DNA of 64,000 bases from Eledone cirrhosa (Eukaryota), in assembly GCA_964016885.1 (NCBI GenBank), contig OZ024744.1:44578001-44642000 (forward strand), read 5' to 3'. How positions within the stretch are numbered: position 1 is the stretch's first letter; each line of letters begins with the position of its first letter. The notes beneath the pieces were generated by a model. The model had not been told where the DNA came from. It searched no databases and saw only the letters and a program-made list of their open reading frames with translations. Positions 10,366-11,326 of this stretch are shown here, piece after piece. A program made the translations under genes and the position numbers.

Positions 10366-10733
10366 TGTAGCGGTTGTCTCCCTTGTTTGGATTAACATCT
10401 AGACGGGAAGTAGAACCCTTTCTGTAACTTCCGGTCAGAACCCTATAAAACTAACACTTTAAGTTCTCACTCTCTCATTTGGCTCTGCCTCTCATTGCCC
10501 TTTCGACACCAGGCCAAGAGCCTCTCATTGGCCTTCTGGCGCCTGGCTTTCGCCAGGCGTCCTCTGCCAGCCGCGTTTGCCTGGCAATCAAAACGGTAAC
10601 GACTAACTTTGTTTCATTCTATCATCTATTTCTTTGACATGCTAACTATACTATCTACCATTGTTAATTAAATATTATACACACAACAATGTATTCCTTG
10701 TTACATTCATACTACCCAGTACTCATCGCTATA
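10366..10733 (+). repeat. 5' LTR of element B copy 1 (368 bp)
   Basis: TATA-like CCCTATAAAA at 10441-10450, GC-rich hairpins at 10511-10586, ATTAAA near 10667; differs from the 3' LTR by about 5 substitutions and 2 single-base indels. Confidence 0.92.
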
Positions 10734-10734
10734 T

Positions 10735-10766
10735 TGGTAACCCTGACGTGATACGAACACGCAGCC
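10735..10766 (+). promoter_or_regulatory. Extended primer binding site complementary to the tRNA-Trp(CCA) 3' end (also at 19631-19662 and 28499-28530)
   Basis: TGGTAACCCTGACGTGATACGAACACGCAGCC versus remembered tRNA-Trp complement TGGTGACCCCGACGTGATTCGAACACGCAGCC: 29/32 identical; one base after the LTR end. Confidence 0.85.
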
Positions 10767-11326
10767 GTTCATCGCTATAAGTGGTCATCCCGAAAAAAGA
10801 AAAAGATAGCAGATTCTGGTGTTGTGTGGGTAACATTACGAATACACAGCAAATTTATCGACAAACTATGAGAATACTCAAAGAAACGGACACACGCACA
10901 TGTGGAATTCGCGTTCAGACAGACTTTTTCTCTCACGCATCAACTAACTGTCGCATTTCACGATATATACTCTCGTTTCTTACAACGAACACTTTCAAAA
11001 CAAAAACAAAAATAAAAAAACATTTCACGATATATATATATGTTTCTCGTTTCTTACAACGAACTCTTTCAAAACAAAAAAAAAAAGAAATTTGATATTC
11101 TTTAAAAAACATTTCAACAGGAACATTTATTTCGATGAACCATTGCCTTTTTGTTCATCGTTTTCTTCATCGTTCAAGTTTTTTTTCCAAAGTTCACACC
11201 AATAATTATGCTGAGTGAAGCCTTTCTTTTTCATCATTGTCACTTTCAAAATTGCACTATCATTTTCCCGCGCGTTAGAAATATTATTTTTTCAACCTTG
11301 TATTGGCACGTGTAGGCAGCACAAAT

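What the first reader, a model, noticed from the sequence alone, without database searches (positions are those of the whole stretch)
10723..10793. Tandem [LTR end + PBS] units in element B: a fresh PBS stacked in front of a decayed one
Seen: TCATCGCTATA-T-[32-nt Trp PBS]-GT-TCATCGCTATA (10769-10779, exact 11-nt copy of the LTR terminus)-AG-TGGTCATCCCGA (10782-10793, 10/12 match to the Trp PBS TGGTGACCCCGA). Inference: an over-extended plus-strand strong-stop DNA re-annealed at the LTR terminus during strand transfer. This would insert a new tRNA-templated PBS upstream of the older, mutated one. The result is a polarised mini-array in which the element renews or acquires primer sites from cellular tRNAs, loosely analogous to leader-end spacer addition.
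Basis: partly seen in the sequence, partly recalled or inferred. Interest (0 to 1): 0.75.

Follow-up and report, generated by a model that had tools for sequence, protein, structure and literature searches.

The report
Retrotransposon with stacked, usable primer sites
A small gene-less jumping element with about 500 copies in this animal genome carries one to five stacked copies of its 'repeat end plus tRNA primer site' junction; the stack likely began as a reverse-transcription accident that over-copied the primer tRNA, and the older rear site likely still starts copying, but no collection of new or different tRNAs was seen.

Summary
Element B (10366-12639) is a non-coding LTR retrotransposon with CsRn1-like ends. 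Its first unit matches the genome's tRNA-Trp(CCA) at 29/32, with CCA and a wrong base at A58: a fossil read-through. Genome-wide, unit number varies: 10 one-unit hits, 524 standard junctions, 12 three-unit arrays, one five-unit; three-unit copies are scattered on the tree. Eight LTRs end at the inner tip copy, all with a 4-bp target duplication; four have the ordinary two-unit front, so the 'decayed' site likely still primes. A second, independent capture exists (L223), and 20 metagenome contigs show similar stacks in other families. But the front site here is not fresh: its two mismatches are shared by 74 of 97 listed copies; all 30 long units in multi-unit arrays keep the same A19; no gradient among them (2 vs 3, 8 ties); no other tRNA was found. 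About a fifth of copies have the first 18 nt or less restored from tRNA, each time singly. So: recurrent reverse-transcription slips at a repeated LTR tip, not CRISPR-like acquisition. The scan noted similar stacks before in this and other genomes.

The parts
10362..10365 (+). Left copy of the 4-bp target site duplication CCTC, in the 28-bp satellite
10366..10733 (+). 5' LTR of element B (TGT...ATA), 368 bp; its last 22 nt are hypervariable across the family
10723..10733 (+). LTR tip TCATCGCTATA, followed by a 1-nt linker T (10734)
10735..10766 (+). Long unit: 32-nt complement of mature tRNA-Trp(CCA), tRNA positions 76 to 45; inherited mismatches at 10739 and 10744; A at 10753 opposite tRNA A58 (likely m1A misincorporation)
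   Evidence: tRNA numbering counted from the 3' end
10767..10779 (+). GT plus inner copy of the LTR tip; used as the integrated LTR end in 8 other insertions
10782..10793 (+). Rear (older) 12-nt Trp primer site after linker AG; C at 10786 is family-wide in young copies, T at 10788 is private to this insertion; perfect in the older subfamily
10794..12253 (+). Non-coding internal region with short repeats; longest frame 162 codons (CAG-rich repeat), no Pfam match
12254..12269 (+). Purine-rich tract directly before the 3' LTR (predicted plus-strand primer)
12270..12639 (+). 3' LTR, 98% like the 5' LTR, ordinary length in this copy; right target duplication CCTC at 12640-12643
19262..21535 (+). 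Second copy of the same insertion (array at 19619-19689)
28130..30403 (+). Third copy of the same insertion (array at 28487-28557)

Best explanation
This is an inherited stack of two 'LTR tip plus tRNA-Trp primer site' junctions in a non-coding LTR retrotransposon family, likely born when a plus-strand DNA that had over-copied the primer tRNA re-paired near the LTR tip, and likely kept fluid by mis-registered strand transfers at the repeated tip. Step 1 (shown): the long unit is a copy of mature tRNA-Trp down to position 45, with a wrong base at A58, and relatives without it exist. Step 2 (inferred): such an over-long plus strand cannot extend in register, so its 3' end paired with the minus-strand copy of U5 some 13-16 nt before the LTR end and copied tip, linker and old primer site again; this happened at least twice (the main unit and L223). 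Step 3 (shown as a pattern, mechanism inferred): the family mostly does not take its primer site from the tRNA, as described for yeast Ty1/Ty3, so mismatches in both sites are inherited; in about a fifth of copies the first 18 nt or less of the front site were restored from tRNA, each time singly. Step 4 (shown): about 1-2% of copies were integrated with an LTR that ends at the inner tip copy; (inferred) these were primed at a rear site. Step 5 (shown): extra units arose many times and are duplicates of the old unit; (inferred) by template slips between the repeated tips during reverse transcription, and perhaps at DNA level for the five-unit copy. No function for the host is implied; the spare junction is a tolerated back-up primer and attachment site.
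For: Read-through: 29/32 match with CCA and mismatch at position 19; 77 tRNA-like hits show T there in nearly all rows; 97 of 97 family rows listed on contig C1 have A (counted by hand); m1A leaves misincorporations on read-through (PMC4787781, passages) and m1A58 is the retroviral plus-strand stop (PMC8599865, passages). One-unit relatives: 10 hits. Second capture L223: 26 nt, T19 and T20 as in the abundant tRNA variant, other joint. Non-inheritance: 74 of 97 listed copies keep TAACCCTG and no tRNA-type sequence with that start was found (2 hits, both TGACCCTG); Ty1/Ty3 model from PMC5371799 (passages of section 2.2). Renewal: tRNA-type front sites need 11 changes for 11 rows, half-restored ones 9 for 9, on the leader tree, with three identical-leader pairs that differ in type; both LTR tips are identical in 6 of 6 fully restored copies against 22 of 51 mutated ones (one-sided Fisher p = 0.010), as expected if the restored site arrives on the plus strand. 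Rear priming: 8 of 24 hits are 3' or solo LTRs ending at the inner tip copy; 8 of 8 have a 4-bp target duplication; 4 have a two-unit front with the rear site still mutated. Gains: 11 changes for 11 three-unit rows on the LTR tree; 30 of 30 long units keep A19; tip-only duplications with two different tip versions also occur (L255, L256). Generality: 20 metagenome contigs, about six families by eye, with 2-4 stacked units and read-through of 13-32 nt.
Against: No intermediate DNA was seen; every mechanistic step is read from integrated copies. The joint of the main unit (GCAGCC-GT-tip) needs two further changes to be derived from the known tips, so a blunt template jump is not excluded. One-unit copies are mixed with old two-unit copies on both trees, so some may be losses and the order 'one before two' is inferred, not rooted. 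With half-restored copies added the tip test is p = 0.057 (4 of 8 identical), and it was done after seeing the data. In L064 the front unit is tRNA-type in the 5' copy but mutated in the 3' copy, which needs a second template. m1A58 was not measured in this organism, and the paper read names dATP misincorporation for a U neighbour, while here the neighbour is A. A U5-tRNA pairing that would guide the re-pairing was significant in 4 of 6 family tails but not in the window's own. The helper element was not identified.
Confidence: 0.7

Rival explanations
1. Ongoing polarised acquisition: each new unit is freshly copied from a cellular tRNA and added next to the LTR, so that the array records primer use over time and can pick up other tRNAs.
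For: Two independent captures; front unit tRNA-type ahead of a mutated one in L113 and L123; in metagenome stacks neighbouring units differ in tip copy and at base 19 (L237, L242); an earlier unchecked note (e1-9554435) reports an Arg site before a Trp site in another family.
Against: 30 of 30 long units in 14 arrays share A19, and all but one keep the same joint; L123 shares a private change in both units; front closer in 2, further in 3, equal in 8 arrays; no other tRNA; front site of this copy is mutated.
Confidence: 0.12
2. One old ordinary tandem duplication in a master copy, later changed only by DNA-level slippage or unequal crossing-over after insertion; the rear site is inert.
For: 524 copies share one arrangement; the five-unit copy has three identical units with a shared private change (L122); units with linker T are what slippage between the two tip copies would give.
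Against: The unit holds 20 nt of tRNA complement that the one-unit form lacks, with CCA and the A58 change, so it is not a duplication of element DNA; 8 insertions end at the inner tip with perfect target duplications; L223 is a different capture.
Confidence: 0.08
3. The unit was joined by an end-to-end template jump or by minus-strand copy choice between two packaged RNAs rather than by re-pairing of the plus strand, with the same outcome.
For: Only 1-4 nt of shared sequence at the joints; chimeric tip copies behind the front unit in L064, L112 and L117 and unequal tips in 29 of 51 young mutated-type copies show frequent switching at this spot; most three-unit copies have ordinary 3' LTRs.
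Against: tRNA-derived letters can enter only through the plus strand; joints in L223 and in metagenome stacks (L236, L244) fall at a similar place in the tip, which suggests pairing rather than random jumps.
Confidence: 0.25

Closest known systems
CsRn1 clade of Ty3/Gypsy LTR retrotransposons (PwRn1, AgCR; PMC2582038, passages and section 6 read)
   Same: tRNA-Trp primer site TGGTGACCCCG, 4-bp target duplication, TGT...ATA termini, purine tract before the 3' LTR. A coding element with CHCC Gag motif, protease, RT, RNase H and integrase and a 32-nt Trp site lies in the same genome (L170).
   Different: Element B codes for nothing and shares only tip and primer site with L170-L173. The section read describes a single primer site; no stack, read-through or rear priming is mentioned there (its alignment figure is a picture supplement that I did not see).
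Yeast Ty1/Ty3 plus-strand transfer with dead-end strong-stop DNA (review PMC5371799, passages; the two primary papers were not held)
   Same: Primer site not taken from the tRNA in most copies; transfer by R-U5 pairing would let the two LTR tips differ.
   Different: Here the tRNA-bearing plus strand is at times used (about a fifth of copies restored) and at least twice left a whole extra junction; Ty DNA stops 12 nt into the tRNA, this one went 26-32 nt.
HIV-1 laboratory variants with multiple or dual primer sites (PMC1084362, passages; a dual Gly/His paper seen only as a reference title in PMC11181671)
   Same: Extra primer sites arise during replication when the original one is mismatched, and can be kept.
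   Different: Those are engineered revertants in culture, partly with different tRNAs; here the stack is natural, fixed in about 500 germ-line copies, includes the LTR tip, and uses one tRNA.
Bipartite primer sites of Ty3 and Drosophila gypsy (PMC1635307, passages; PMC5371799)
   Same: Two tRNA-binding sites in one element.
   Different: There the second site lies far away and binds another part of the tRNA; here both bind the 3' end and each follows an LTR-tip copy.
CRISPR array growth at the leader end (recalled, no call)
   Same: Repeat-insert-repeat layout next to a leader-like terminus.
   Different: Inserts are copies of one tRNA end, not varied spacers; no gradient among long units; no acquisition genes; no guide function shown.

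Membership tests
LTR retrotransposon (non-autonomous) | Two LTRs, primer site, purine tract, target duplication, dispersed copies | tested here: met
LTR retrotransposon (non-autonomous) | No coding capacity | tested here: met
   longest internal frame 162 codons, repeat-derived, no Pfam hit
CsRn1 clade (Ty3/Gypsy) | tRNA-Trp primer site | tested here: met
CsRn1 clade (Ty3/Gypsy) | 4-bp target duplication and TGT...ATA/AAA/ACA termini | tested here: met
CsRn1 clade (Ty3/Gypsy) | Gag with CHCC motif and clade-type Pol | tested here: not met
   absent from element B; present in L170, which is not shown to be its helper. B is therefore called CsRn1-like by its ends only
CsRn1 clade (Ty3/Gypsy) | Place in an RT phylogeny | not testable with these tools
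   element B has no RT; not attempted for L170
Retrovirus-type plus-strand transfer | Primer site renewed from tRNA in each cycle | tested here: not met
   74 of 97 listed copies keep two mismatches that no tRNA-type sequence carries
Ty1/Ty3-type plus-strand transfer | Primer site inherited from RNA, not from tRNA | tested here: met
   as a genomic pattern; about a fifth of copies are exceptions
Ty1/Ty3-type plus-strand transfer | Repeated priming at the purine tract and dead-end strong-stop DNA | not testable with these tools
   needs particle DNA
CRISPR-like polarised array | Varied inserts between constant repeats | tested here: not met
   30 of 30 long units are one sequence type; no other tRNA
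CRISPR-like polarised array | Age gradient away from the leader | tested here: not met
   front closer to tRNA in 2, further in 3, equal in 8 of 13 arrays; only the long-versus-short order fits
Primer activation signal (U5-T-arm pairing) | U5 motif complementary to the tRNA T arm | tested here: inconclusive
   duplex better than shuffles (P<0.05) in 4 of 6 family tails (two of them identical) and 2 of 13 others, not in the window's tail

The most novel reading that the evidence does not exclude
tRNA-Trp-primed CsRn1-like elements in several animal groups run a ratchet: over-copied tRNA ends are added as new 'tip plus primer site' junctions, rear sites stay usable, and priming at a rear site absorbs the front unit into both LTRs. 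LTR ends would then grow from host tRNA, and the stacks would be a dated record of primer use, of tRNA modification (base 19) and of a plus-strand transfer route between the retroviral and the yeast Ty types, readable from genomes alone.
Probability: 0.3. Interest if true: 0.72.

Novelty: new variant of a known kind. Interest (0 to 1): 0.5.

Why it matters
How LTR retrotransposons other than yeast Ty1/Ty3 do plus-strand transfer, and whether they inherit their primer site from tRNA, is known for few elements. This family carries built-in markers (two mismatches in the front site, variable LTR tips, a spare junction) that let the rates be read from the genome: restoration from tRNA in about a fifth of copies, rear priming in 1-2%, unit gain in 2-3%. 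It shows a natural way for an element to gain a back-up primer and attachment site and for LTR boundaries to move, which also matters for annotation and LTR dating. It is not a new immune-like or acquisition system.

Tried and rejected
Rfam scan of the element: three weak chance hits, no tRNA family. A tRNA variant that would make the front site perfect: none found. Units from other tRNAs: none among units whose stretch between TGG and the next TATAAG is 6-36 nt before the rear site (2 hits: L223 and a small deletion), none of about 8-40 nt before the long unit (2 hits, both tip-only duplications); exact patterns, so decayed or longer foreign units could be missed, and one-unit losses in young copies with poly-C rear sites were not searched. 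Helper element: L170-L173 share only tip and primer site with B. U5-tRNA pairing: mixed. Old primer-like 13-mer inside element A's LTR: 1 match, P = 0.043, too weak to use. Viral contigs: no tandem Trp sites. Sequencing runs: no RNA holder listed; laying four runs gave no listed joints, only pairs of reads in X7 that fit one-unit or tip variants, not used as evidence. Literature: searches listed no paper on stacked LTR-tip/primer-site units or rear priming in natural retrotransposons; I judged these from listings and abstract starts, the library lacks most subscription journals, and repeat databases were not searchable, so absence from print is not shown. The two primary Ty papers were not held.

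Full report
Observation. They lie at the end of the 5' LTR of a 2,274-bp element: LTRs 10366-10733 and 12270-12639 (98% alike), target duplication CCTC, inserted in a 28-bp satellite that fills most of the window. The three window copies are one insertion multiplied with the satellite (same target duplication, 99.96-100% alike). The inner region codes for nothing. The genome is 3.0 Gb in 1,796 contigs.

The long unit is a copy of mature tRNA. ARAGORN calls tRNA-Trp(CCA) genes in 6 of 10 loci tested. Against L082 plus CCA, the unit matches 29 of 32, with mismatches at positions 5, 10 and 19, and stops at tRNA position 45; the rear site matches 10 of 12. Position 19 is A58. The tRNA genes have T there on this strand, the family has A in 97 of 97 rows listed for contig C1 (the other 3 of the 100 rows belong to other families). 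m1A58 is the plus-strand stop of retroviruses (PMC8599865, passages), and read-through of m1A leaves wrong bases (PMC4787781, passages). That the modification exists in this animal is inferred.

Unit number varies. Exact patterns find 524 junctions of the standard kind, 10 copies with only the short rear site directly behind the LTR (all of an older LTR type), and 13 places with two long units in a row, plus one more. Of these 14, twelve have three junctions, one has five (L122) and one is rearranged (L121). These are lower bounds. In the older subfamily both sites are perfect (15 hits), so the rear motif is a true primer site that decayed. On a tree of 106 5' LTRs the 11 three-unit rows need 11 changes, no fewer than shuffled labels (the parser mislabelled L030 and L223 as one-unit, and some loci were not extracted). 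One-unit and old two-unit copies are mixed, so some one-unit copies may be losses.

Extra units are duplicates, not new captures. All 30 long units in the 14 arrays have A19 and, except the front unit of L112, the same joint; L123 carries a private change in both units. The front unit is closer to the tRNA in 2 arrays, further in 3, equal in 8 (L121 set aside). Two searches for units of other lengths found no other tRNA. They did find one independent capture: L223 has 26 nt of tRNA complement with T19 and the T20 of the abundant tRNA variant, joined to a tip copy at another place, ahead of a perfect rear site. L219 and L231 have a third joint type that may be independent or derived.

The front site is mostly inherited, sometimes restored. 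Of 97 family rows on C1, 74 have both mismatches, 12 none, 10 only the second and 1 only the first (counted by hand). No tRNA-type sequence with the mutated start exists. On a leader tree of 118 rows (3 second fragments dropped, 3 labels corrected by hand, bootstrap not settled), the 11 tRNA-type and 9 half-type young copies need 11 and 9 changes, and three pairs with identical leaders differ in type: restoration is recurrent and founds no lineage in this sample. Both LTR tips are identical in 6 of 6 fully restored copies, 4 of 8 half-restored and 22 of 51 mutated ones (p = 0.010 and, pooled, 0.057; post hoc). This fits the Ty1/Ty3 route, in which the primer site is not taken from the tRNA and the tRNA-bearing plus strand is usually a dead end (review PMC5371799, passages), with occasional use of that strand.

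The rear site is not dead. Among 24 places where the inner tip copy is not followed by AG, 8 are 3' or solo LTRs that run through the long unit and end exactly at the inner tip copy. All 8 have a matching 4-bp target duplication. Four (L196-L199) have the ordinary two-unit front with the rear site still mutated, two (L064, L115) have three units, two are solo. Since the 3' LTR end is set by where minus-strand synthesis starts (established knowledge), these were most likely primed at a rear site, and integrase accepted the inner tip. Conversion of a 3' end would need pairing over only 6-8 shared letters and is less likely. The rate is about 1-2% of copies; ends followed by AG are hidden in the count.

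The layout is general. One scan of metagenome contigs found 20 with tandem Trp sites. By eye they fall into about six families, with two to four 'tip plus site' units, read-through of 13 to 32 nt and T or C at base 19; many end in flanking DNA right after the last tip copy, like the extended LTRs here, but their target duplications were not checked. One stack precedes a reading frame that resembles a Gag start (resemblance recalled). Earlier unchecked notes describe like stacks in this genome (e1-9554435, with an Arg site) and in others (e1-8614857, e1-9523320).

Mechanism. Shown: tRNA origin of the unit, variation in number, independent gains, single restorations, use of the inner tip as an LTR end. 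Inferred: an over-long plus strand re-paired near the LTR tip and recopied tip and old site (twice or more); later gains came from slips between the repeated tips during reverse transcription; rear priming made the extended LTRs. A blunt jump or minus-strand copy choice cannot be excluded for the joints, and a guiding U5-tRNA pairing is unproven.

Comparison. By its ends the element is CsRn1-like (Trp site, 4-bp duplication, TGT...ATA; PMC2582038, section 6), but it lacks Gag and Pol, and the coding CHCC element found here (L170) is not shown to be its helper. Multiple primer sites are known from HIV-1 revertants in culture (PMC1084362, passages); the two sites of gypsy and Ty3 are of another kind (PMC1635307, passages). 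Eight searches listed no account of such stacks or of rear priming in natural elements; this is a limited library, judged from listings. The picture supplement of PMC2582038 with primer-site alignments was not seen and may bear on this.

Verdict. Real, recurrent and mechanistically informative; a new variant of known reverse-transcription errors rather than a new acquisition system. Interest 0.5.

Noticed in passing
window 10366-33000: Element B with its flanking satellite is repeated three times at about 8.87-8.90 kb spacing with the same target duplication: a higher-order repeat in the 28-bp satellite, or an assembly duplication.
   Followed up: partly
window 191-2930 (element A): A second non-coding LTR element, related to L171/L173, with a decayed long Trp site at about 740-775 that runs to GCAGCCTTCT, a doubled tip (ctgctaca ctgcttaa), and primer-like motifs inside its LTR at about 591 and 705 that may be absorbed old junctions (P = 0.043 for one).
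   Followed up: partly
family-wide, last 22 nt of the LTR: Tip differences between the two LTRs of one element average 8.8% per site against 1.3% in the body (71 elements, three rows badly aligned); 48 different 11-nt tips among 109 5' ends.
   Followed up: yes
L112 (front unit), L113, L232: A-to-G changes in units (AA to GG twice in L112) look like RNA editing fixed by reverse transcription; not tested.
   Followed up: no
L121, position about 588: The LTR's U5 tail is replaced by the 3' part of the long unit at a TGATAC/TCATAC likeness, suggesting that the U5 tail and the tRNA copy can pair or recombine.
   Followed up: partly
L170-L173, L216: Other families in this genome also carry over-long Trp sites (32 nt with T19 in L170-L172, about 38 nt in L216, 48 nt in L173); L171 has an L170-type leader behind a different LTR tip.
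   Followed up: partly
G000:C4, about 353.39-353.49 Mb and 277.41-277.44 Mb: Clusters of dozens of tRNA-Trp gene copies, most in the larger cluster with TTCAAAT instead of TTCGAAT in the T loop.
   Followed up: no
L074; L126: L074 is a tandem three-LTR element; L126 has a longer duplication holding a second tip and primer site inside the leader.
   Followed up: no
family-wide rear site: In young copies the rear site's C run expands to poly-C of up to 19 letters.
   Followed up: no
window 55364-60883; 60982-63059: A 5.5-kb G-rich 21-bp tandem array follows the satellite, and nested inverted repeats with SINE-like pieces lie behind it (the SINE label is recalled).
   Followed up: no
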